This document shows positions 30,712 to 64,000 of a stretch of 64,000 nt of DNA, one piece after another. The stretch's first letter is position 1, and the number at the start of each line of letters is the position of its first letter. The notes under the pieces were generated by a model. That model was given only the letters and a program-made list of their open reading frames with translations. It searched no databases and was not told the origin of the DNA. The translations under genes were made by a program, and so were the position numbers. Source of the stretch: Thermoanaerobaculia bacterium (lineage in GTDB: Bacteria; Acidobacteriota; Thermoanaerobaculia; Multivoradales; SZUA-115); contig JAXLQX010000010.1 of the NCBI GenBank assembly GCA_046331405.1, forward strand, positions 50,551 to 114,550, in the 5' to 3' direction.

Positions 30712-31839
30712 CTAGCTGCTGCGGCGCTGAAGCAGGATCAGACCGGCGGCTGCCAGCAGGGCGAAGAGCACGCCCAGGCCCACCCAGTTCAAGGTCGGAA
30801 CCGAGAGGGTGGTGAAGCCGGCCTCGAGGGTCACCGTCGAAGTGTTGTTGGCCGGGGTCGGGTCGTTGCTGGTGCCGGTGATCGTGGCGGTGTTGGCGAC
30901 GGCTCCGGGCGTACCCACCGTGGCGGTGACGTTGCACACCACCGAGGCCCCGTTCGCCAGGTTGCCGATGTTCCAGGTGAAAGGCGGGTTGTTGGTGCCG
31001 CCGCAGTCGTTCGAGGAGTACATCAGGCTCGCGGGCAGGGTGTCGGTCACCACCACGCCGGTGGCGTTGGAGGGACCGTTGTTGGTGGCCGTCAGGGTGT
31101 AGACCACCTGGTTGCCGTTGGCGACACCGGTCTTGGTGAGAGCCAAGTCAGCATCCAGACCCCCCACTTGGCCCCAGATGGAGAACAGCAAGTCCGGGCT
31201 GGCGCCGCCGCCCACGCCGCAGGTGCGCTGAGGAGTGAACGTGGTGCAGCCGGTGGCGAAGCCGTCGCCCGGGTTACGCCAAACGGACTCGCTGTTCGTC
31301 TGGGTGCTGCGGTTGCTCCAGAAGTGCTGGCCGAAAGAGCCGAAGTTCTGGTTGGTCTGGATGCGCACCCAGTGGGTGGCCGGGCCGAGGATGCAGGGCG
31401 TGGGGAGGTTGATCATGAAGGAACCGGCCGCGTCCGTGGGGCTGATGCCGGTGTAGGTGCATTCCGCAGCGCCGGGGAGGTCCGGGTTGCCACCACCGGC
31501 GGCGTTGGCGAAGAAGGTCACCGAGACCGTGGAACCGCCGGCGGTGCCCGTGGTGCCCACGGTGCGCACTTGCTCGACCGTCCAGCCTGAAGCGTCCGTC
31601 ACCACGAAGTCGTCCGCTGCCTCGGAGTCGTAGGCGTCGAAGCTCGCCTCGAAGTCCTGGTCCGGCACGCCGTTGCCCGCCGGGTTGTTGGTCTGGTCGT
31701 AGAGCAGGACCGGGACTCCATTGGGTGCGTTGGAGACGGCTCCGGTGCCGCCGGCGGCTTTCTGCAGCGCTGCCGACGAGGGAAGTGCCAGGACCACGGC
31801 CAGCGCTGCGCAGATCGAGCTCGTAGTGACGGTTTTCAC
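30712..31839 (-). CDS. secreted DUF11-repeat protein with an IPTL-CTERM sorting signal
   Basis: GTG 31839 gives the signal peptide KTVTTSSICAALAVVLALPSSAA. The DUF11-type repeat reads DLALTKTGVANGNQVVYTLTATNNGPSNATGVVVTDTLP. The C-terminus is VPTLNWVGLGVLFALLAAAGLILLQRR. ATG 31926 is an alternative start. Confidence 0.7.
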   Translation of the reverse strand: MKTVTTSSICAALAVVLALPSSAALQKAAGGTGAVSNAPNGVPVLLYDQTNNPAGNGVPDQDFEASFDAYDSEAADDFVVTDASGWTVEQVRTVGTTGTAGGSTVSVTFFANAAGGGNPDLPGAAECTYTGISPTDAAGSFMINLPTPCILGPATHWVRIQTNQNFGSFGQHFWSNRSTQTNSESVWRNPGDGFATGCTTFTPQRTCGVGGGASPDLLFSIWGQVGGLDADLALTKTGVANGNQVVYTLTATNNGPSNATGVVVTDTLPASLMYSSNDCGGTNNPPFTWNIGNLANGASVVCNVTATVGTPGAVANTATITGTSNDPTPANNTSTVTLEAGFTTLSVPTLNWVGLGVLFALLAAAGLILLQRRSS

Positions 31840-31954
31840 GGCTTCTTGCCCCCCACAGGTAAGTGGTTTCGAGGGATTCTTTCCGAGCCCACAGCCGATG
31901 TCAACTCCGCGCGAAAGGATTCTCATTTTCAAGCTCGCTTTCGGCCCGGTGGGC

Positions 31955-33916
31955 TCAGAGCCGAGTTTCGGAAGATTTTCGTAATCGCTCGATATTCTTT
32001 CGAAACAGGGCGTTCTCCGGCTCGATCTCGAGAGCTTTTTCGAGGGCCTCGAGGGCAGCTTTCCGGTCCCCCGAGAGGTAGGCCACGTTCGCCAGCTGCT
32101 GGTAGACCGCCGCTGCTCGAGGAGCGAGTCGCAGCGCCTCTTCGGCGAGCTGTTTGGCCAGCGGGTAGTCGCCGCGCCGCATCGCGGCGGAGGACTCGGC
32201 CAGCTTTCGGCTCGCCTCGGGGTGTGCCTGGGCGAACTCGTCCACCAGCGCTCCGAGGCGCGCCAGGGCCTGGCGGGAGGGCTGGTAGTCCGAGTCGTAC
32301 CTGAGAGCCCGCCGGTAGTCGGCGATCGCCTCCTGGCGCTTGCCCTGGCGCTCGAGCAGGATGGCGCGATTGTGGTACGCCGGGACGAAGATCGGGTCAA
32401 TCTCGAGGGCTCGGGCGAAGTGGCCGAGGGCTTCTTCGCCGCGCCCTTGCCCGGCGAGAGCGCTGGCCAGGCCGGTCTCGAGGGCAGCGTCCTCGGGGCG
32501 GGCCGCGAGCAGCAAGGTGAAGGCGTCCGCGGCCTCCTGGTAGCGGTGGTCCTTCAAGGCGAGGAAGGCGAGGTTGCGGTCGTTCGAGGCCGAGCTCGCG
32601 TTGCCCAGATAGCCCAGGCTCTTCAGCCGCCGGATCACCTCTTGATCCACTTGCGTGTTGGCCGGCGCCGCGGGGAGTGAGGGAGAACCTCCGGCTGGCT
32701 CGTAGCTCGCGACCCGGGCGAGCTCGGGAACCTCCACCAGGGCCTCGCGCAGCACCCTTCCGGGCATGTCGGCCGCCGCCGGCAGCCCGGCCAGCGTGAG
32801 CAGGGTGGGTGCCACGTCCAGCACTTGGGGCTCCTCGAGGCGCGTTCCGGGGCGGATCCGGTGGCCGTAGAGAAAGAGCACTCCGTGGTCCCGGTGGTAG
32901 CGCTCGGAGACCCGTCGCATGTCCGCGAGCTTGCTGGGGTCGGTGGGCAGCTCGCCGAGCAGGAAGCCGTGGTCCGAGAGCACCACCAGGGTGGTGCGGG
33001 CATCGAGCTCGGCCAGGAGCTGGCCCACCCCTTGATCGGCCAGGGCGTAGACCGCCTCGACCGTGCCGCCGTAACGGGCCTGCTGGGCCGCCAGCTCGCC
33101 CGCGAGCGGCTGCTGGCGGAAGAGGTGGCCGAAGAGATGGGCCGTGGAGTCCGTGGCCTCGAGGTAGACCATCAGCAGCTCCGGGTGGTCCTCCCGCCAG
33201 AGCTTGAGACCGAGATCGCGATAGGAGAAGGCGGTGGCGAGCGCCCAGCGCAGGTGCCAGAGCTCGTCGGCGAAGTCGAACGGCCGAGCGAGCTCGGCCG
33301 CCGTCACCTGGGCGTAGGGGGCGAGGTCGGCCGCCCCGAGGTCGGCCGGGCGGCGCACCCGCGCCAGCAGTTCAGCCATGCGGGCAGCCGGGGAGACGAG
33401 CGCCGCGGAGACCTCCGAGCCCACTCCCTGCTTCTCGAGGAAGTGGTAGCAGGCGTGGTCGCTCACCACCACTCCGTTGACGTCCTCGGCCGGCCAGGTG
33501 GCCCACCAGCCCACCACTCCCACTTTCTTGCCGGCCTCCGAGAACAGGTTCCACAGGGCCTTCACCCGGCGCATGCGGCTGGTGACCGGGATCTCCTGGC
33601 CGTCGACGTCCACCGCCGTGAAATGGCCGATGCCGTGGGCCTCCGGCCGCTTGCCGGTGGCGATGGTGGTCCACACCACCGGCGAGAGAAGGGGCGGGTC
33701 CACATGGAGCGGGCCGTAGGCCCCCTCCCGCCGCAGCCGCGCCAGGTTGGGCAGCTTGCCCTCCCGCATCAGTCGGTCCATCGCCACCGGGTCGAAGCCG
33801 TCCAGCCCCAGGACCAGGAGACGCGAAGGCCCCGGCGCCGGGGCCTTGCCGCAGGCAGAGAGAGCGCACAGGCAGAGCCATGTGGCTGCGAGTCTGCTTC
33901 GAAGCCTAGCCCTCAT
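31955..33916 (-). CDS. lipoprotein: alkaline-phosphatase-superfamily phosphodiesterase domain plus C-terminal TPR repeats
   Basis: It starts at an internal ATG with a lipobox (MRARLRSRLAATWLCLCALSAC). LLVLGLDGFDP...LLSPVVWTTIATGKRPEAHGI is typical of type I phosphodiesterase/nucleotide pyrophosphatase-like proteins. The C-terminal roughly 230 aa is TPR. Confidence 0.75.
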   Translation of the reverse strand: MRARLRSRLAATWLCLCALSACGKAPAPGPSRLLVLGLDGFDPVAMDRLMREGKLPNLARLRREGAYGPLHVDPPLLSPVVWTTIATGKRPEAHGIGHFTAVDVDGQEIPVTSRMRRVKALWNLFSEAGKKVGVVGWWATWPAEDVNGVVVSDHACYHFLEKQGVGSEVSAALVSPAARMAELLARVRRPADLGAADLAPYAQVTAAELARPFDFADELWHLRWALATAFSYRDLGLKLWREDHPELLMVYLEATDSTAHLFGHLFRQQPLAGELAAQQARYGGTVEAVYALADQGVGQLLAELDARTTLVVLSDHGFLLGELPTDPSKLADMRRVSERYHRDHGVLFLYGHRIRPGTRLEEPQVLDVAPTLLTLAGLPAAADMPGRVLREALVEVPELARVASYEPAGGSPSLPAAPANTQVDQEVIRRLKSLGYLGNASSASNDRNLAFLALKDHRYQEAADAFTLLLAARPEDAALETGLASALAGQGRGEEALGHFARALEIDPIFVPAYHNRAILLERQGKRQEAIADYRRALRYDSDYQPSRQALARLGALVDEFAQAHPEASRKLAESSAAMRRGDYPLAKQLAEEALRLAPRAAAVYQQLANVAYLSGDRKAALEALEKALEIEPENALFRKNIERLRKSSETRL

Positions 33917-34533
33917 GGGCCGGTACCGGGTGCTGGCTGAGCGCCGAGCTCCGCGAGGAGGCGAGCGGCCGAAGGAGCGGCGCGCGCCACCAGCCCGGGG
34001 TCCAGCAGCCCGAGCAGCCGAAAGCTGTGCTCTCCTTTCGCATAACCGCCTTTGGCCGTCGGGCGAGCCGCCCGGTCGAGCCCAAAGAGCACTTCCTGCT
34101 TGCCGACCTTCTCCACCTCGTTGCCGGCGGGCAGGCTGCTGGTCTGGAAGCCCTGGCCGAAGTAGCGAGAGAGAGCCTCTCGGTCGGCCAAGAACCAGCT
34201 TTCCATGCACTGGACCATCAGCTGGCACTGTCCCTCCCTCGCGCCGCTCGGCCTCTTCCAGCCGTCCTGGGTGGAAAGATGGTCCCAAGGGTTGGCAGCC
34301 GACACCGGCCCTTCGGCGTCGACCAGCAAGATCGAGTCCCCTTCGGCTCGGGCCGCGGTACAAGCCAGTGCGAAACTCTTGAAAGCGTCAGTTCTCGCTC
34401 CGCATGCCACCACTCTTGGCATCCGGCCAGCCAGCCCGGCGCGGGAGAGGAACTGTGCGAAGCCCCGCCGGCACTGAGCCCGAAGAGCCTTCGACTGGCC
34501 GCCGCCTTCGACGTATAGCCGGACGCTTACCAT
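33913..34533 (-). CDS. DUF4276-like protein (predicted Toprim-like nuclease partner of the upstream ATPase)
   Basis: This 206-aa protein starts MVSVRLYVEGGGQSKALR... and later contains SILLVDAEGP. This is the acidic E...DxE pattern I associate with DUF4276/Toprim-like proteins. Its ATG overlaps the ATPase stop (ATGGTAA). Its own TGA overlaps the next ATG. Confidence 0.6.
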   Translation of the reverse strand: MVSVRLYVEGGGQSKALRAQCRRGFAQFLSRAGLAGRMPRVVACGARTDAFKSFALACTAARAEGDSILLVDAEGPVSAANPWDHLSTQDGWKRPSGAREGQCQLMVQCMESWFLADREALSRYFGQGFQTSSLPAGNEVEKVGKQEVLFGLDRAARPTAKGGYAKGEHSFRLLGLLDPGLVARAAPSAARLLAELGAQPAPGTGP

Positions 34534-35696
34534 CGGGTACCGCCGATCTCCCCTCGGGTCCAGAGCTCGCCCAACCGGTACTGCTCGAGCCACGGCTTCA
34601 GCTTCTCGGGATCCAACCTCCGCAGCCGCGTGGCGCCGTCGTACTTCTCGCAGATCAGCACTGCTTCCGGTGTGGCGGAGAGGGCGTCGACCAGGATGTC
34701 CGAGTGGGTGGTGACCACCAGCTGCATCTTCTCGGAAGCCTCGACCAGGATCTGGGCCAGATGGGGGAGGACGTCCGGGTGGAAGCCGAGCTCTGGCTCT
34801 TCGAGACAGACCAGCGGCGGTGGCTGGGGATGGCAGAGCACCGCGAGCAGGGCCAGATACCGCAACGTGCCGTCCGAAAGGCGAGTGGCCGGGATCGCCC
34901 ACTTGCCTTCTTGGACGAAGATCTGAACGGTTCCCGCCTGCACATTCACGTGGAAGTCGTCCAGCCCCTCCGCGAGCTCCCCCAGGTGCGCCACCAGGCG
35001 TCGCTTGGTCTCAGGCTCCTTCTGCAGGCTGTTGAGTACCAGGCCCAGATTCCGCCCGTCTTCGGCCAGGAAGTCGTTGGCGAGGTCGGCGGGCTGGGGC
35101 AGGCGCGGCGGTGTGTAGCGGCCGAACGACCAGTCCCGATAGATCCGGATGCGGGCCAAGCTCTCGCCCAAGTAAGTGATCTCGGGATACTGGTCCGGAT
35201 CCTTGCGCTGGGAGAGGATCGAGCGTTGAGGGTCGATCTCCTCGCGAATCAGCTCTCGGCGATCGCCCTTGACGTTGAGCATTGGACGGCCGCGCTCGTA
35301 CCCGAAGTAGAAGTAAGGGCGTTCATAGCCGGGATCCGTGACAGCGTTCTCGATCCGCTCGTCGACTACCTCGAAGCGGGCCCCGGCCTCGGCGAAGGCC
35401 AGCCTGTAGCGCAGCGAGCTGCGCTGGGGGTAGCCGAAGACCCCCTCCAGCCGAGCCGTGGCCGGCCGTTGGGCTCCCTTCCAGAGCCAGTCCTGCACTC
35501 CTCCCCCCTCCCGCACCGGCGCTGCCAGGTCGCCGGGAGCGGATCGAAGCAAGCTGATGGCTTCGATCAGGTTCGACTTGCCGGAACCGTTGGGGCCGAT
35601 CAGCACGTTCAAGGGCCCGAGCTTGAGCGGCTCGGAACTGCCGCCGAACGAGAGCAGGTTGGTCAGCGTCAGCTCTTCGAGGAGTCTTGGCGGCAT
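34527..35696 (-). CDS. ABC-type (AAA_21-like) ATPase, OLD/AriA/AbiLi-like
   Basis: It has Walker A (GPNGSGKSN), a signature-like LSDGTLRYLAL, Walker B (LVCLEEPELGFHP) and an H-loop (VVTTHS). The size (389 aa) and the pairing with a small downstream gene are typical of two-gene defence ATPases. Confidence 0.8.
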   Translation of the reverse strand: MPPRLLEELTLTNLLSFGGSSEPLKLGPLNVLIGPNGSGKSNLIEAISLLRSAPGDLAAPVREGGGVQDWLWKGAQRPATARLEGVFGYPQRSSLRYRLAFAEAGARFEVVDERIENAVTDPGYERPYFYFGYERGRPMLNVKGDRRELIREEIDPQRSILSQRKDPDQYPEITYLGESLARIRIYRDWSFGRYTPPRLPQPADLANDFLAEDGRNLGLVLNSLQKEPETKRRLVAHLGELAEGLDDFHVNVQAGTVQIFVQEGKWAIPATRLSDGTLRYLALLAVLCHPQPPPLVCLEEPELGFHPDVLPHLAQILVEASEKMQLVVTTHSDILVDALSATPEAVLICEKYDGATRLRRLDPEKLKPWLEQYRLGELWTRGEIGGTRW

Positions 35697-35772
35697 TTCT
35701 GTACGGGCCTCCAGTAGGCCTCGAGGACGGGAGTGGCCGCCGGGGCGGTCAGTCTCTTGGGCACCACGGGCT

Positions 35773-37392
35773 TCACTGCCAGGCCGTGGTGCTGCCGGAC
35801 TCGAAGCCGTCGGCGAAGATCTCGTGCCAGTCCACGGCGTGGGCGCGATCCACCAGCAGGTTGCTGCGCTTGGTCAGCTTGCCGTCGGGCCACTCCACCA
35901 CCACTTGATCCACCCGGGTGGCGGTGCCGAGGCCGAAGAAGGACTCGGCCGGCTCCTGGCCCATGAAGCTGATGCCCGCCGTCACCAGCCGGCTCTGCAC
36001 GGTGGCCCCCACCCGGGCCCGTACCACCGCGCCGATGGCCTGGTGGTTGGGGGCGGGCATGCGTGGCACGATGCGTACCCAGTGGCGACCGGTGACGCCG
36101 CTGCCGAGCAGCAGCCGCAGGGGCCCGGGCGCTGGATGCACCTTGGTGGTCTGCACCAGGTCCGGCAGGCCGTCGTGGTTCAGGTCGAAGCACACCAGGG
36201 AGCTGCCCCAGAGGGTGTCGTTGAAGCCGATCGCGTCCGAGATGTCGGTGAAGCTCCAAGCCGGCGCGCCGCCATTCTGGAAGAAGCGCGAGGCGTCGTG
36301 CTCGAAGCCGGTCTCCGAGAAGCCGTTGGTCACCGCCAGGTCGAGGTCGCCGTCGAGGTCGGCGTCGAGGAACGTGGTGCCCCAGCCCCAGCCGGTGTTG
36401 TCCACACCCAGGCTGGCCGCCACCTCGGTGAAGGCCAGGCTGGAGCCCACCGAGTCGTTGCGGAAGAACACGTTGTGCTCGCCGGGGCTGCGCTGCCAGA
36501 CGTTGGTGACGTAGAAGTCGAAGTCGCCGTCGTTGTCGTAGTCACCCACGGCCACGCCCATCTCGTTCCAGGAGGAAGCCACGCCGGCCGCCGGCGCGCC
36601 GTCGACGAAGGTGCCGTCGCCCTGGTTGAGCCACAGCTTGTTGGGCCCGAAGTCCACCGAGACGAAGATGTCCAGCCGGCCGTCGTGGTTGAGGTCGAGC
36701 ATCACCGGCTGCCAGTCCTTGCGCTTCGCCACGCCGATGCCCGAGGAGAGGCTGGCGTCCAGGAAGGTGCCGTCGCCCTGGTTGAGGTAGAGGCTCGAGT
36801 GGCCGTCCCAGAGGGAGACGTAGAGGTCGAGGTCGCCGTCGCCGTCGAGGTCTCCGGCAGCCATGCCGCCTCGGTGGTCGGTCACCAGGAAATTGCCCGA
36901 GTCCTGGGCGAGGCCAGCGGGGCCGGTGATCTCGGTGAAAGTGTCCCCGGCGTCGTGCCGATAGAGGTGCAGCATCGGGATGCCGGCCTCGCAGGCGCTC
37001 GAGCCCGGCTCGGGGTTCCAGTGGCTGCCGAAGCAATCCGAAGCCACCACCAGGTCGAGGTCGCCGTCGCCGTCGGCGTCGAACCACAGGGCCGAGCGGC
37101 TGCGCAGCGTGGAGGCGAGGCCCGCCTGGGCGGCGATCTCCTCGAAGAAGCCGTTGCCCAGGTTGCGGTAGAGCTGATCGGGCACCCCTTCTTCGTTGGG
37201 GATGAAGAAGTCCACGTCGCCATCGTCGTCGAAGTCGGCCGCGGCGATGCCGCCACCCATCAGATTGGCCATGGTGTAAGGGCCGATGCCGCGCGCCGCC
37301 CCGGACTCCACGAACAGGGGCTGGGCGGCGAGAGGCAGGCCCGGAAGGAGCAGCACGAGTACCGTCGACGCCAGGAAGGAGATCGTTTTCAT
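35773..37392 (-). CDS. CRTAC1-family secreted protein (FG-GAP/VCBS repeats plus ASPIC/UnbV domain)
   Basis: It has a signal peptide (MKTISFLASTVLVLLLPGLPLAAQ) and repeated D-x-D/N-x-DGDLDL motifs. The C-terminus reads GISFMGQEPAESFFGLG.... Confidence 0.85.
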   Translation of the reverse strand: MKTISFLASTVLVLLLPGLPLAAQPLFVESGAARGIGPYTMANLMGGGIAAADFDDDGDVDFFIPNEEGVPDQLYRNLGNGFFEEIAAQAGLASTLRSRSALWFDADGDGDLDLVVASDCFGSHWNPEPGSSACEAGIPMLHLYRHDAGDTFTEITGPAGLAQDSGNFLVTDHRGGMAAGDLDGDGDLDLYVSLWDGHSSLYLNQGDGTFLDASLSSGIGVAKRKDWQPVMLDLNHDGRLDIFVSVDFGPNKLWLNQGDGTFVDGAPAAGVASSWNEMGVAVGDYDNDGDFDFYVTNVWQRSPGEHNVFFRNDSVGSSLAFTEVAASLGVDNTGWGWGTTFLDADLDGDLDLAVTNGFSETGFEHDASRFFQNGGAPAWSFTDISDAIGFNDTLWGSSLVCFDLNHDGLPDLVQTTKVHPAPGPLRLLLGSGVTGRHWVRIVPRMPAPNHQAIGAVVRARVGATVQSRLVTAGISFMGQEPAESFFGLGTATRVDQVVVEWPDGKLTKRSNLLVDRAHAVDWHEIFADGFESGSTTAWQ

Positions 37393-37444
37393 GGCAGGGC
37401 CCTCGGCCCCATTCTAATCAAGAGCCCGCTTCCACCACGGGCTG

Positions 37445-37945
37445 CTAGAGCTCTTTGCGGTAGCGCCGGGTGTCCGGCTGCCAGCCCAGCCGCTCGTAGA
37501 GGGCTCGCGCACGAACGTTGGCATGGAACACCGTGAGCGTGATGAACGGCAAGCCGCGCTCGCGCGCCCAATCATCGGTGGCCTCGAGCAGGGCTCGGGC
37601 CACTCCGCGCCCCTCGGCCTCGCGGCGCACCGCCAGGATCGACAGATGGGCGTGCTTCTCGCCGGTGAAGAAGTCCCGCTGGGTGAGCAACATCGCATAG
37701 CCCAGGCGCTCCCCGCCCGGCACCTGCTCGGCCACGATCAAGCCGAGGTCGGGGTCCGGCTCGGCGAGGGCGAGGCGGATCGGCGCATGCTCGATGGCGG
37801 CGATCTCCTCGCGGCTGCGCCAGGGCGGGATCTCGAAGTCGGCCAGGCGGTAAGTGAGCTCGATCAGGAAGTCGTAGTCGTCGGGGCGGGCCGGCCGCAG
37901 GCGGAGGGAGTCGGACATGGGCTGTTTCCAGCTCGAATCTAACAC
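37445..37945 (-). CDS. GNAT-family N-acetyltransferase
   Basis: This is a 166-aa protein. The acetyl-CoA binding segment is LSILAVRREAEGRGVARALLE. Confidence 0.85.
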   Translation of the reverse strand: MLDSSWKQPMSDSLRLRPARPDDYDFLIELTYRLADFEIPPWRSREEIAAIEHAPIRLALAEPDPDLGLIVAEQVPGGERLGYAMLLTQRDFFTGEKHAHLSILAVRREAEGRGVARALLEATDDWARERGLPFITLTVFHANVRARALYERLGWQPDTRRYRKEL

Positions 37946-54002: not shown

Positions 54003-62957
<8,955 letters not shown>

Positions 62958-62988
62958 GGCGGGCTCCTGGCAGGCAGAGAGGTTTCGC

Positions 62989-64000
62989 TCAGGCTTCCTC
63001 GGCGGCGAGCAGCTCGGCGAGCAGGGCTTCGACCGCGCCATCGGAGAGCCCGTCGAGGTCGGGGCGGAGATCCGCGGCAGCGACGGCGGGGCTCGGCGTC
63101 GCCTCGGGCGCGGCCGTTCCCGCGCCCCGGACAGCGAGTTCGGCCGCCAGCTCGGCCAGCACGGAACGCTCGAAGACCGCGGCGAGCGGCAGCTCCACCC
63201 CGAAGCCGAGGCGCAGGCGGGACACCAGCTGGGTGGCGAGCAGCGAGTGGCCGCCGAGGGCGAAGAAGTCGTCCTGCCGGCCGACGTCGCGCACTCCCAG
63301 AAGCTCGCTCCAGAGGCCGGCCAGGGCCTCTTCGAGCGGGCCCCGGGGCGGCTCGAGCTGCTCGCCCGGCCCGGTTGTGGGCTCTGGATGGGGCAGCGCT
63401 GTGAGGTCCACCTTGCCGGTCGCCCCGAGCGGCAGCCTCTCGAGCACCACCACGAAGCTCGGCACCAGGTGCTGGGGCAGCCGCGCCCCGAGTTCGGCCT
63501 TGAGGCCCTCGGAGGACAGCCCCTCCTGGCCACAGACGTAGGCGGCCAGGCGCTTGCCGGCGAGCGGATCGTCGAGCATCTTGACCGCCGCGGCGCTCAC
63601 TCCGGGCAGGCTTTGGAGCTGGCTTTCGATCTCGCCGGGCTCGATCCTGAAGCCGCGGATCTTCACCTGGCGGTCCAGCCGGCCGAGGTACTCCACCACC
63701 CCGTCCGGGCGCCAGCGCACGCGGTCCCCGGTCGCGTAGAGCCGCTCGCCGGGAGTGGCGGCATGGGGGTCCGGCCGGAACTTCTCGGCGGTGGCCGCGG
63801 GGCGGCCCAGGTAGCCCCGGGCGAGGCCGGCACCGCCCAGGAAGAGCTCACCGGGCACGCCGATCGGCTGCAGGGCGAACCGGGAGCCGAGCACCAGGCC
63901 CCGAGTGGCCCCGATCGGCCGCCCGATCGGCAGCGGGTCTCGCACCTCGGCCGGGGAGTCCATGGCGAACGTATGCGAGAAGGTGGTGCTCTCGGTGGGG
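62989..64000 (-). CDS. non-ribosomal peptide synthetase, 3' part (A-T plus docking-like tail; continues beyond the window)
   Basis: The frame is open to the window edge (…PTESTTFSHTFAMDSP). Motifs present are GELFLGGAGLARGYLG, QVKIRGFRIEPGEIE, LPLGATGKVD and FFALGGHSLLATQL. The acidic C-terminal tail is DGAVEALLAELLAAEEA. Confidence 0.9.
   Translation of the reverse strand, partial: PTESTTFSHTFAMDSPAEVRDPLPIGRPIGATRGLVLGSRFALQPIGVPGELFLGGAGLARGYLGRPAATAEKFRPDPHAATPGERLYATGDRVRWRPDGVVEYLGRLDRQVKIRGFRIEPGEIESQLQSLPGVSAAAVKMLDDPLAGKRLAAYVCGQEGLSSEGLKAELGARLPQHLVPSFVVVLERLPLGATGKVDLTALPHPEPTTGPGEQLEPPRGPLEEALAGLWSELLGVRDVGRQDDFFALGGHSLLATQLVSRLRLGFGVELPLAAVFERSVLAELAAELAVRGAGTAAPEATPSPAVAAADLRPDLDGLSDGAVEALLAELLAAEEA

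What the first reader, a model, noticed from the sequence alone, without database searches (positions are those of the whole stretch)
33913..35696. Overlapping ABC-type ATPase and DUF4276-like gene pair: an OLD/PARIS/AbiL-style defence candidate inside a housekeeping-looking gene string
Seen: the 389-aa ATPase has Walker A (GPNGSGKSN), a signature-like LSDGTLRYLAL, Walker B (CLEEPELGFHP) and VVTTHS. Its stop overlaps the ATG of a 206-aa protein by 7 nt (ATGGTAA). That protein starts MVSVRLYVEGGGQS and carries LLVDAEGP. The small gene's TGA in turn overlaps the ATG of the downstream phosphodiesterase lipoprotein (ATGA). Established: ABC/AAA_21-type ATPases paired with, or fused to, Toprim-type nucleases form anti-phage modules such as OLD nucleases, Gabija GajA, PARIS AriA/AriB and AbiL. 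From memory, DUF4276 proteins are about 200 aa with exactly this N-terminal hEG and a downstream acidic motif, and they are routinely found beside such ATPases. Inference: this is a two-gene abortive-infection or nuclease defence system. To my knowledge its DUF4276 variant lacks experimental characterisation.
Basis: partly seen in the sequence, partly recalled or inferred. Interest (0 to 1): 0.7.

Follow-up and report, generated by a model that had tools for sequence, protein, structure and literature searches.

The report
HEC-01 ATPase–Toprim defence gene pair
This is an intact copy of an already catalogued two-gene candidate anti-phage module, an ABC ATPase plus a small Toprim-like nuclease that PADLOC calls HEC-01, which was acquired horizontally and sits wedged between two ordinary envelope genes of a Thermoanaerobaculia bacterium.

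Summary
On the minus strand, a 389-aa ATPase (34527-35696) overlaps a 206-aa protein (33913-34533) by 7 nt. That protein's stop overlaps the ATG of a phosphodiesterase-TPR lipoprotein gene by 4 nt.

Family assignment:
- The ATPase matches Pfam AAA_21 (E 3.8e-38) and the small protein matches DUF4276 (E 5e-17).
- Both match full-length PADLOC models of the candidate system HEC-01 (HEC-01A 589 bits, HEC-01B 248 bits).
- They do not meet the models for PARIS, AbiL, OLD or MADS.

Structure:
- The ATPase model is an SMC/Rad50/PtuA-type ABC head.
- The small protein's only credible fold matches are OLD Toprim regions and a phage RloB-like protein. These matches are weak (E 0.02-0.17). It has an invariant Glu9 and an Asp72-x-Glu74 motif.

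Context:
- The closest relative has the two flanking genes adjacent, without the pair. None of 80 orthologous loci carries it, so the pair is an insertion.
- Elsewhere the same subfamily sits inside BREX, inside a type I R-M locus, on integrative elements, and in housekeeping operons.

Published tests of HEC-01 are mixed, with one negative and one positive. The related MADS genes mad3 and mad4 are needed for defence. This is a new member of a known candidate kind, of modest interest.

The parts
34527..35696 (-). HEC-01A: 389-aa SMC/Rad50-type ABC ATPase (Pfam AAA_21)
   Evidence: The ORF is listed. It matches Pfam AAA_21 at E 3.8e-38 and PADLOC HEC-01A model PDLC04177 at E 9.8e-178 over residues 4-389. 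The AlphaFold model has pLDDT 88.6. Its best PDB fold matches are the SMC head 4i99 (E 4e-16), PtuA and Rad50.
33913..34533 (-). HEC-01B: 206-aa DUF4276 protein, predicted Toprim-fold nuclease
   Evidence: It matches Pfam DUF4276 at E 5.2e-17 and PADLOC HEC-01B model PDLC04201 at E 1e-74 over residues 1-197. The model has pLDDT 91.7 with a beta-alpha repeat. The top four PDB fold hits are OLD C-terminal Toprim regions (probability 0.69-0.96, E 0.02-0.11). The start at 34533 is supported by the conserved N-terminus in 49 homologues.
34527..34533 (-). 7-nt stop/start overlap (ATGGTAA) between the two genes; presumed translational coupling
   Evidence: The overlap is read directly from the sequence. 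A 4- or 7-nt overlap lying within the invariant C-terminal Arg-Trp-stop of the ATPase is found in all six loci checked.
35574..35597 (-). Walker A / P-loop, GPNGSGKS (residues 34-41)
   Evidence: G34, N36, G39, K40 and S41 are invariant in 37 homologues.
34848..34880 (-). ABC signature segment LSDGTLRYLAL (residues 273-283)
   Evidence: S274, D275, G276, T277, L278, R279 and L281 are invariant.
34791..34808 (-). Walker B segment CLEEPE (residues 297-302), with Glu299 where many ABC ATPases have Asp
   Evidence: C297, E299, E300, P301 and E302 are invariant in 37 homologues.
34701..34718 (-). H-loop segment VVTTHS (residues 327-332)
   Evidence: T329, T330, H331 and S332 are invariant.
34498..34515 (-). 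YVEGGG (residues 7-12): Toprim-type catalytic Glu9 in the loop after strand 1
   Evidence: E9, G10, G11 and G12 are invariant in 49 homologues. Strand 1 of the model spans residues 5-8.
34312..34320 (-). Asp72-Ala73-Glu74: the acidic pair at the end of strand 3, at the position of the Toprim DxD motif
   Evidence: D72 and E74 are invariant. Strand 3 of the model spans residues 67-72. The sequence was read directly.
35697..35772 (-). 76-nt spacer between the FG-GAP gene stop and the ATPase ATG; upstream edge of the inserted segment
   Evidence: No sigma-70-like promoter or terminator was found here.
33913..33916 (-). ATGA overlap of the DUF4276 stop with the start of the host phosphodiesterase/TPR gene; downstream edge of the insertion
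   Evidence: The same ATGA arrangement with the downstream host gene is seen in L006 and, from ORF coordinates, in L106.
35773..37392 (-). Flanking host gene (FG-GAP/ASPIC repeat protein); not part of the system but defines the insertion site
   Evidence: Pfam assignment. In relative L014 it lies directly next to the phosphodiesterase gene.
31955..33916 (-). Flanking host gene (type I phosphodiesterase + TPR lipoprotein); not part of the system
   Evidence: Pfam assignment. All 80 orthologous loci lack the ATPase/DUF4276 pair.

Best explanation
The locus is an intact, horizontally acquired copy of the two-gene candidate defence module that PADLOC calls HEC-01.

Shown:
- An SMC-head-like ABC ATPase (HEC-01A) and a DUF4276 protein with a Toprim-like fold and a conserved acidic triad (HEC-01B) are encoded as overlapping genes.
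- The pair is an insertion between two host envelope genes.
- Relatives of the same subfamily are embedded in BREX and type I R-M loci and are carried on integrative elements.

Inferred by analogy with PARIS (AriA/AriB), OLD/Gabija and MADS Mad3/Mad4:
- The two proteins are made in fixed proportion by coupled translation and form a complex.
- The ATPase holds the nuclease inactive and acts as the sensor of an infection cue.
- On sensing, with ATP binding or hydrolysis, the Mg2+-dependent Toprim nuclease is released or activated. It then cuts nucleic acid, which stops phage replication or causes abortive infection.
- Whether the target is DNA or tRNA, and what the trigger is, are unknown.
- Expression probably rides on the host gene string, because no promoter-like or terminator-like site separates the four co-directional genes.
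For: Family:
- Pfam AAA_21 and DUF4276 are both above their cut-offs.
- PADLOC HEC-01A scores 589 bits and HEC-01B 248 bits, both full length.

Integrity:
- All ATPase motifs and the Toprim acidic residues are intact and invariant across homologues.
- The locus is 99.7-99.8% identical in four other contigs.

Folds:
- The ATPase model matches the SMC head, PtuA, Rad50 and OLD at E 1e-12 to 4e-16.
- The top four PDB hits for the DUF4276 model are OLD Toprim regions. Three have probability 0.85-0.96 and TM 0.41-0.51; the fourth has probability 0.69. The next hit has probability 0.16.
- The top viral hit is an RloB-like protein.

Coupling:
- A 4- or 7-nt overlap is found in all six loci checked, five of them from other lineages.

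Insertion:
- Relative L014 has the FG-GAP and phosphodiesterase genes adjacent without the pair, and 0 of 80 orthologous loci carry it.
- DUF4276 has the lowest third-position GC in the window (z = -2.9).

Defence association of the same subfamily:
- Between BrxC and PglX of a BREX system.
- Inside a type I R-M locus with PemK, SLFN/AlbA_2 and MNT/HEPN genes.
- Beside GmrSD, methylase and recombinase genes.
- Beside a TIR-domain protein.
- On integrative elements.

Literature:
- HEC-01B shares the OLD metal site (10.1101/2024.01.29.577857).
- DUF4276 is placed in the Toprim superfamily (PMC12065111).
- A HEC-01 representative protected E. coli against at least one phage (10.1101/2024.09.26.614923).
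- mad3 and mad4 are required for MADS defence (10.1101/2023.03.30.534895).
Against: - The one HEC-01 representative tested by its discoverers gave no protection against any phage (10.1101/2024.01.29.577857).
- The positive report is a spot assay on a different representative, with no mechanism.
- The Toprim fold match is weak by E-value (0.02-0.04, TM about 0.45-0.5). No sequence profile links DUF4276 to solved Toprim structures.
- No defence gene lies near the pair in this window.
- About five of the twelve sampled contexts are plain housekeeping.
- The family is nearly absent from phages and from catalogued plasmids.
- Complex formation, nuclease activity, substrate and trigger were not tested here and could not be.
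Confidence: 0.65

Rival explanations
1. The pair is chiefly a selfish addiction (toxin-antitoxin-like) cassette. The Toprim nuclease is a toxin held in check by the ATPase. The pair persists and spreads because losing it is harmful, and it gives the host no net anti-phage benefit.
For: The distribution across phyla is patchy at 62-76% ATPase identity. The pair inserts into unrelated operons and mobile elements. A negative phage screen is reported in 10.1101/2024.01.29.577857. PDB depositors label PARIS AriA as an 'antitoxin'.
Against: A frameshifted DUF4276 gene sits next to an intact ATPase gene in L006, which shows the nuclease gene can decay. One HEC-01 representative did protect against phage (10.1101/2024.09.26.614923). 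Toxin-antitoxin behaviour and abortive-infection defence are not mutually exclusive.
Confidence: 0.12
2. The pair has a housekeeping role in nucleic-acid repair or RNA processing, as a RecF/SMC-like ATPase with an RNase M5-like Toprim enzyme, rather than in immunity.
For: Sequence conservation is very high, with 69% mean column identity for the ATPase. The setting here and in L006, L095, L102 and L105 is housekeeping. The fold resembles SMC and Rad50 heads.
Against: The pair is absent from the closest relative at the same site and from all 80 orthologous loci. Its distribution across phyla is patchy. It is embedded in BREX and R-M loci and carried on integrative elements.
Confidence: 0.08
3. 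The copy is an inactive relic that is no longer expressed or functional.
For: No promoter-like site of its own was found. There are no companion defence genes nearby. A decayed copy exists elsewhere, in L006.
Against: Both reading frames are full length and every invariant motif is intact. The ATPase protein is identical in four independently assembled contigs, and the locus is 99.7-99.8% identical at the DNA level. The genes sit in a co-directional string that would provide transcription.
Confidence: 0.05
4. The ATPase and small protein work with the neighbouring FG-GAP and phosphodiesterase lipoprotein genes as one envelope or transport operon.
For: The four genes are co-directional. The DUF4276 stop overlaps the phosphodiesterase ATG. 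No terminator was found between them.
Against: None of 80 loci encoding orthologues of the phosphodiesterase carries the pair, and L014 has the two host genes directly adjacent. The ATPase is an SMC-type head, not a transporter subunit. Other copies of the pair have entirely different neighbours.
Confidence: 0.02

Closest known systems
HEC-01 (Hma-embedded candidate 01; PADLOC-DB v2; Payne et al., bioRxiv 10.1101/2024.01.29.577857)
   Same: It has the same two components: an ABC ATPase and a separate Toprim-like protein. Both window proteins match HEC-01A and HEC-01B models over their full length at 589 and 248 bits, and the genes are adjacent.
   Different: This copy is not embedded in an Hma system or any other defence locus. 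It lies between envelope genes. The family is a candidate with mixed evidence, negative in the original screen and positive for another representative in 10.1101/2024.09.26.614923. Which HEC-01 subfamily was tested in either study is not known to me.
MADS Mad3/Mad4 (methylation-associated defence system, P. aeruginosa)
   Same: It has an AAA_15/21-type ABC ATPase followed by a DUF4276 protein (PMC12065111; PMC11464382, section 11). Both genes are needed for defence (10.1101/2023.03.30.534895).
   Different: The window ATPase scores 86.8 bits against NCBIfam MAD3, whose cut-off is 420. The small protein hits no Mad4 model. None of the six other mad genes, including the methylase, is nearby.
PARIS (AriA ABC ATPase + AriB DUF4435 Toprim nuclease)
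   Same: It is a two-gene system of an ABC ATPase plus a separate Toprim effector. It offers a plausible shared logic, in which an ATPase scaffold restrains the nuclease until a trigger arrives.
   Different: The effector family differs, DUF4276 rather than DUF4435, and no AriB model is hit. The AriA hit is only to the generic AAA_21-length model at 120 bits, against 589 bits for HEC-01A. The ATPase is 389 aa with no long coiled coil.
AbiL (AbiLi ATPase + AbiLii RloB-like protein)
   Same: It is an ATPase plus a small Toprim-superfamily partner. The best viral fold match for the DUF4276 model is an RloB-like protein.
   Different: The AbiLi match is weak (75 bits). The small protein hits no RloB or AbiLii model.
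OLD-family nucleases / Gabija GajA
   Same: They combine an ABC ATPase with a Toprim nuclease. The best PDB fold matches of the small protein are class 2 OLD Toprim regions.
   Different: In OLD and GajA the two domains are fused in one polypeptide, whereas here they are two genes. The Old model matches only about 70 residues of the ATPase (50 bits). The second acidic residue of the motif is Glu rather than Asp.

Membership tests
PADLOC HEC-01 | A protein matching a HEC-01A (ABC ATPase) model | tested here: met
   PDLC04177 matches at E 9.8e-178 and 589 bits, covering residues 4-389 of 389 and profile positions 3-393 of 393.
PADLOC HEC-01 | A protein matching a HEC-01B (Toprim-like / DUF4276) model | tested here: met
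   PDLC04201 matches at E 1e-74 and 248 bits, covering residues 1-197 and profile positions 1-197 of 202. Pfam DUF4276 scores 63.2 bits against a cut-off of 30.2.
PADLOC HEC-01 | The two genes are adjacent on the same strand | tested here: met
   They overlap by 7 nt on the minus strand.
PADLOC HEC-01 | Anti-phage activity | not testable with these tools
   Literature only: negative for one representative (10.1101/2024.01.29.577857) and positive for another (10.1101/2024.09.26.614923).
Toprim superfamily (for the small protein) | Four-stranded parallel sheet built from beta-alpha units | tested here: inconclusive
   The model (pLDDT 91.7) has strands at 5-8, 40-43, 67-72 and 103-106, each followed by a helix. 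The top four PDB matches are OLD Toprim regions, but at E 0.02-0.11 and TM 0.41-0.51. Strand order was not checked.
Toprim superfamily (for the small protein) | Conserved Glu after strand 1 and an acidic DxD motif after strand 3 | tested here: met
   Glu9 is invariant. Asp72-x-Glu74 is invariant, so the motif is DxE rather than DxD in this subfamily.
ABC ATPase (SMC/Rad50/OLD clade) | Walker A, Q-loop, signature, Walker B and H-loop motifs, and an ABC head fold | tested here: met
   Invariant residues include G34, N36, G39-K40-S41, Q163, S274-D275-G276, E299-E300, and T329-T330-H331-S332. Fold matches to SMC, Rad50 and PtuA heads have probability 1.00. Walker B has Glu299 where Asp is usual.
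PARIS | AriB effector of the DUF4435 Toprim family next to AriA | tested here: not met
   The small protein hits only HEC-01B models in PADLOC and only DUF4276 in Pfam, even at E up to 10.
AbiL | AbiLii (RloB-like) partner next to AbiLi | tested here: not met
   No AbiLii or RloB sequence match was found. The AbiLi match is only 75 bits. The RloB-like resemblance exists only at the fold level.
OLD / Gabija GajA | ATPase and Toprim domains fused in one polypeptide | tested here: not met
   The two are separate ORFs of 389 and 206 aa.
MADS | Mad3 equivalog score, and the presence of methylase and other mad genes | tested here: not met
   NCBIfam MAD3 scores 86.8 bits against a cut-off of 420. 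Neighbouring genes encode FG-GAP, GNAT, kinase, OPT transporter, phosphodiesterase and Rieske proteins.

The most novel reading that the evidence does not exclude
The HEC-01 pair may spread as a minimal, promoterless two-ORF cassette. It would insert co-directionally into existing operons of any kind, abutting or overlapping the neighbouring reading frames, and rely on host transcription. On this reading, the 'embedding' in BREX, R-M and Hma loci reported for it would be a property of how the cassette integrates and is expressed, not a sign of functional cooperation with those systems.

Observations that fit:
- The upstream neighbour is co-oriented in all 12 sampled pairs.
- In 9 of 12 the gap to the upstream gene is under 130 nt.
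- In three independent cases the DUF4276 stop overlaps the ATG of the downstream host gene: the window, L006 in a Bat/MoxR operon, and L106 in BREX.

No recombinase, repeat or att-like boundary was identified.
Probability: 0.15. Interest if true: 0.5.

Novelty: new member of a known kind. Interest (0 to 1): 0.25.

Why it matters
It matters little as a discovery. The gene pair belongs to a family already present in defence-prediction databases, and the DUF4276 protein is already named as such in nr. It is useful in three smaller ways:
- It is a clean, intact example of HEC-01 outside any defence island, with a datable insertion site because a relative has the empty site.
- It shows that the same subfamily occurs both inside BREX and type I R-M loci and inside ordinary operons. 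This bears on how 'guilt by embedding' should be read.
- It recalls that the ABC ATPase + DUF4276 branch of the OLD-like systems still lacks a biochemical mechanism, substrate and trigger, and has conflicting phage assays.

Tried and rejected
- **Link to the phosphodiesterase/FG-GAP genes:** rejected. I ran tblastn of the ATPase, DUF4276 and FG-GAP proteins against 80 loci encoding orthologues of the phosphodiesterase. It found the pair in none and found the empty site in L014.
- **Plasmid carriage:** tblastn of both proteins against PLSDB gave no match.
- **Phage carriage:** INPHARED gave only a 30%-identical orphan 'recF' ATPase next to blaSHV in phage RCS47, with no DUF4276 partner. IMG/VR gave a single locus.
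- **Sequence-level link from DUF4276 to solved structures:** a profile search of the PDB found nothing at E up to 1. Pfam at E up to 10 returned only DUF4276. PHROGs found nothing for the small protein.
- **Promoter and terminator scan of 31800-37600:** nothing was found between the four genes. The scan uses E. coli-type consensus sequences, so it is weak evidence in an acidobacterium.
- **Cassette boundaries:** by-eye inspection of 160 nt on each side in six loci showed no shared flanking sequence. No formal repeat search was run.
- **Compositional test for recent transfer:** only the DUF4276 third-position GC stands out (z = -2.9). The ATPase does not (z = -0.76).

Full report
**Observation**

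- The 389-aa ATPase is encoded at 34527..35696 and the 206-aa protein at 33913..34533.
- On the coding strand the junction reads ATGGTAA (34533..34527). The ATPase stop and the next ATG therefore overlap by 7 nt.
- The small gene's TGA overlaps the ATG of the next gene as ATGA (33916..33913).
- That next gene encodes a 653-aa type I phosphodiesterase with C-terminal TPR repeats. The gene upstream of the ATPase, after a 76-nt spacer, encodes an FG-GAP/ASPIC repeat protein.
- The quoted motifs are real and conserved (see 'Integrity and anatomy' below).

**What the two proteins are**

Sequence matches:
- The ATPase matches Pfam AAA_21 over the whole model (132.7 bits, cut-off 27). The small protein matches DUF4276 over the whole model (63.2 bits, cut-off 30.2).
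- Against PADLOC-DB v2 the ATPase matches HEC-01A model PDLC04177 end to end (E 9.8e-178, 589 bits). The small protein matches HEC-01B model PDLC04201 end to end (E 1e-74, 248 bits).
- Matches to AriA, AbiLi, mad3, NsnB and Old are far weaker and partial. The small protein hits nothing but HEC-01B models.
- NCBIfam MAD3 scores 86.8 bits against a cut-off of 420.

The pair is therefore a member of the candidate system HEC-01. It is not PARIS, AbiL, OLD/Gabija or MADS, although it shares their ABC-ATPase-plus-Toprim architecture.

Structures:
- An AlphaFold model of the small protein, built from 49 homologues, is confident (pLDDT 91.7). It shows four strand-helix units.
- Its top four PDB matches are all C-terminal Toprim regions of class 2 OLD nucleases (6nk8, 6njv, 6njx). 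Probabilities are 0.69-0.96 and TM 0.41-0.51. The next hit drops to probability 0.16.
- The E-values (0.02-0.11) are not significant on their own. No sequence profile links the family to a solved structure.
- The best hit among viral models is an RloB-like protein (probability 0.82).
- This agrees with published assignments. Payne et al. found that HEC-01B shares the OLD metal-binding site (10.1101/2024.01.29.577857). The Menshen study places DUF4276 and RloB in the Toprim superfamily (PMC12065111).
- The ATPase model (pLDDT 88.6) matches SMC heads, PtuA of Septu and retron systems, Rad50 and OLD, all with probability 1.00. It is a compact ABC head without a long coiled coil.

**Integrity and anatomy**

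In 37 ATPase homologues the following are invariant: G34, N36, G39-K40-S41, Q163, S274-D275-G276-T277, E299-E300-P301-E302, T329-T330-H331-S332, and several residues of the C-terminal tail, including the final R388-W389. Walker B has Glu299 where Asp is usual, throughout the family.

In 49 DUF4276 homologues, E9-G10-G11-G12, D72, E74, E111 and D117 are invariant.
- Glu9 follows strand 1.
- Asp72-x-Glu74 ends strand 3. These are the positions of the Toprim Glu and DxD motif, here in a DxE form.

The stop/start overlap lies inside the invariant Arg-Trp-stop codons. It recurs as a 4- or 7-nt overlap in all six loci checked, five of them from other lineages. Coupled translation therefore appears to be a conserved feature of the pair.

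**Origin and context in this genome**

- The nearest named relative of the small protein is from a Thermoanaerobaculia bacterium.
- The same locus is 99.7-99.8% identical in four other assembled contigs.
- The wider window encodes housekeeping functions. These include a GNAT acetyltransferase, an OPT transporter, aspartate-pathway enzymes, Rieske proteins, RodZ and GreA, together with a 1020-aa ORF read as a Ser/Thr kinase from its sequence alone. There is no other defence gene nearby.
- Among 80 loci encoding orthologues of the phosphodiesterase, none contains the pair. The closest, L014 (another Thermoanaerobaculia genome), has FG-GAP, phosphodiesterase and the next downstream gene in the same order, with about 230 nt between the first two.
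- The pair is therefore an insertion. Its overlap with the phosphodiesterase start is not a conserved functional link.
- Composition is largely host-like (ATPase third-position GC z = -0.76), but DUF4276 has the lowest value in the window (z = -2.9).
- No promoter-like or terminator-like site separates the four co-directional genes. This is weak evidence in this phylum.

**Distribution and neighbourhoods elsewhere**

- The DUF4276 search returned 1763 clusters. The ATPase search hit its candidate limit (7998 of the 8000 candidates scored passed E 1e-10). The top 120 ATPase hits are 62-76% identical and come from Planctomycetota, Alphaproteobacteria, Gallionella, Desulfosoma and Thermoanaerobaculia. 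The DUF4276 hits also include Myxococcota. This fits horizontal spread.
- Twelve pairs were sampled, in eleven contexts:

| Context | Loci |
|---|---|
| Integrative element with RP-C/ParA/SprT/ProQ genes and copper resistance | L001-5, L099-101 |
| Edge of an element with integrase, relaxase and ArdC | L097 |
| Beside a TIR-domain protein | L008 |
| Inside a type I R-M locus with PemK, SLFN/AlbA_2 and MNT/HEPN | L103 |
| Beside GmrSD, ParB-methylase, ImmA-like, recombinase and HsdM genes | L104 |
| Between BrxC and PglX of a BREX system; same subfamily by PADLOC | L106 |
| Plain housekeeping settings | window, L006, L095, L102 (two pairs), L105 |

- The family is absent from PLSDB plasmids and INPHARED phages. 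It is found once in IMG/VR.

**Literature status**

- HEC-01 was defined by its embedding in Hma systems. It was described as an ABC ATPase plus TOPRIM and gave no protection in E. coli (10.1101/2024.01.29.577857).
- A cold-seep HEC-01 representative protected E. coli B against at least one of T4, T5 and T7 (10.1101/2024.09.26.614923).
- In MADS, deletion of mad3 or mad4 reduces defence. The mad5 gene could be deleted only together with mad2 or mad3 (10.1101/2023.03.30.534895). The Menshen study identifies Mad4 as a DUF4276 homologue (PMC12065111).
- The PARIS study lists AbiL and MADS3-4 among ABC ATPase + TOPRIM systems (PMC11464382).

**Mechanism**

Shown: family membership, intact motifs, conserved gene overlap, insertion, and recurrent association with defence loci and mobile elements.

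Inferred by analogy with PARIS, OLD/Gabija and MADS: the proteins form a complex; the ATPase senses an infection cue and controls the Toprim nuclease; the nuclease then cleaves nucleic acid to block the invader or the infected cell. Substrate and trigger are unknown. I give this reading 0.65. Rivals are a mainly selfish addiction cassette (0.12), a housekeeping nucleic-acid function (0.08), an inactive relic (0.05) and a role in the flanking envelope operon (0.02, essentially refuted).

**Verdict**

The claim of no experimental characterisation is out of date, and the system already has a name. It is a new member of a known candidate kind, with interest 0.25.

The least ordinary aspect is that the pair repeatedly sits tightly wedged, co-directionally, inside operons of any function. 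In three cases the DUF4276 stop overlaps the downstream host ATG. This hints that 'embedding' may be a property of the cassette itself. That idea is untested (probability about 0.15).

Noticed in passing
L010 5846-6262, L011 2521-2937, L012 2519-2935 (the same locus as window 33913-34533): Public gene calls start the DUF4276 gene at an internal codon. This gives 138 aa instead of 206 aa, leaves a false 197-nt gap after the ATPase gene, and drops the conserved N-terminus with the catalytic Glu9. The nr entry (P0001) is 200 aa. Homologue alignment supports the overlapping ATG at 34533.
   Followed up: partly
L106 1793-10081 (IMG/VR contig IMGVR_UViG_3300045256_000750): The same HEC-01 subfamily (62% identical ATPase) is wedged between BrxC (DUF6079) and PglX of a BREX system. 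It begins a few nt after the BrxC stop, and its DUF4276 stop overlaps the PglX ATG.
   Followed up: yes
L102 1195-3071 (-) and 6784-8615 (+): One genome carries two separate ATPase+DUF4276 pairs within 7 kb, on opposite strands, among metabolic genes.
   Followed up: no
L006 11161-11779: In a Planctomycetota genome the pair sits between the DUF58 and BatA genes of a MoxR/Bat operon. The DUF4276 frame is broken by a frameshift after about residue 105, which could be decay or an assembly error. The C-terminal piece still ends in an ATGA overlap with the BatA start.
   Followed up: partly
window 34791-34808 (ATPase residues 297-302): Walker B reads CLEEPE, with Glu299 in place of the usual Asp. 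It is invariant in all 37 homologues aligned, so it is a family trait rather than a defect of this copy.
   Followed up: partly
12 sampled HEC-01 pairs (window, L001, L006, L008, L095, L097, L102 x2, L103, L104, L105, L106): The upstream neighbour is co-oriented with the pair in 12 of 12 cases. In 9 of 12 it lies within about 130 nt. No shared flanking sequence was seen by eye in six loci.
   Followed up: partly
window 54003-63596 (-): A single open reading frame of about 3200 codons with strong coding-type third-position GC (0.91). It was not analysed.
   Followed up: no
L094 3893-5038 (Escherichia phage RCS47, NC_042128.1 22709-23854): A 30%-identical 'recF'/AAA family ATPase lies next to blaSHV-2 and an IS26 copy in a P1-like phage. 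It has no DUF4276 partner and appears to be an orphan relative of this ATPase class.
   Followed up: partly
L014 11384-12901 (-): The relative that shows the empty insertion site also has a second FG-GAP paralogue (59% identical), in inverted orientation, downstream of the syntenic block.
   Followed up: no
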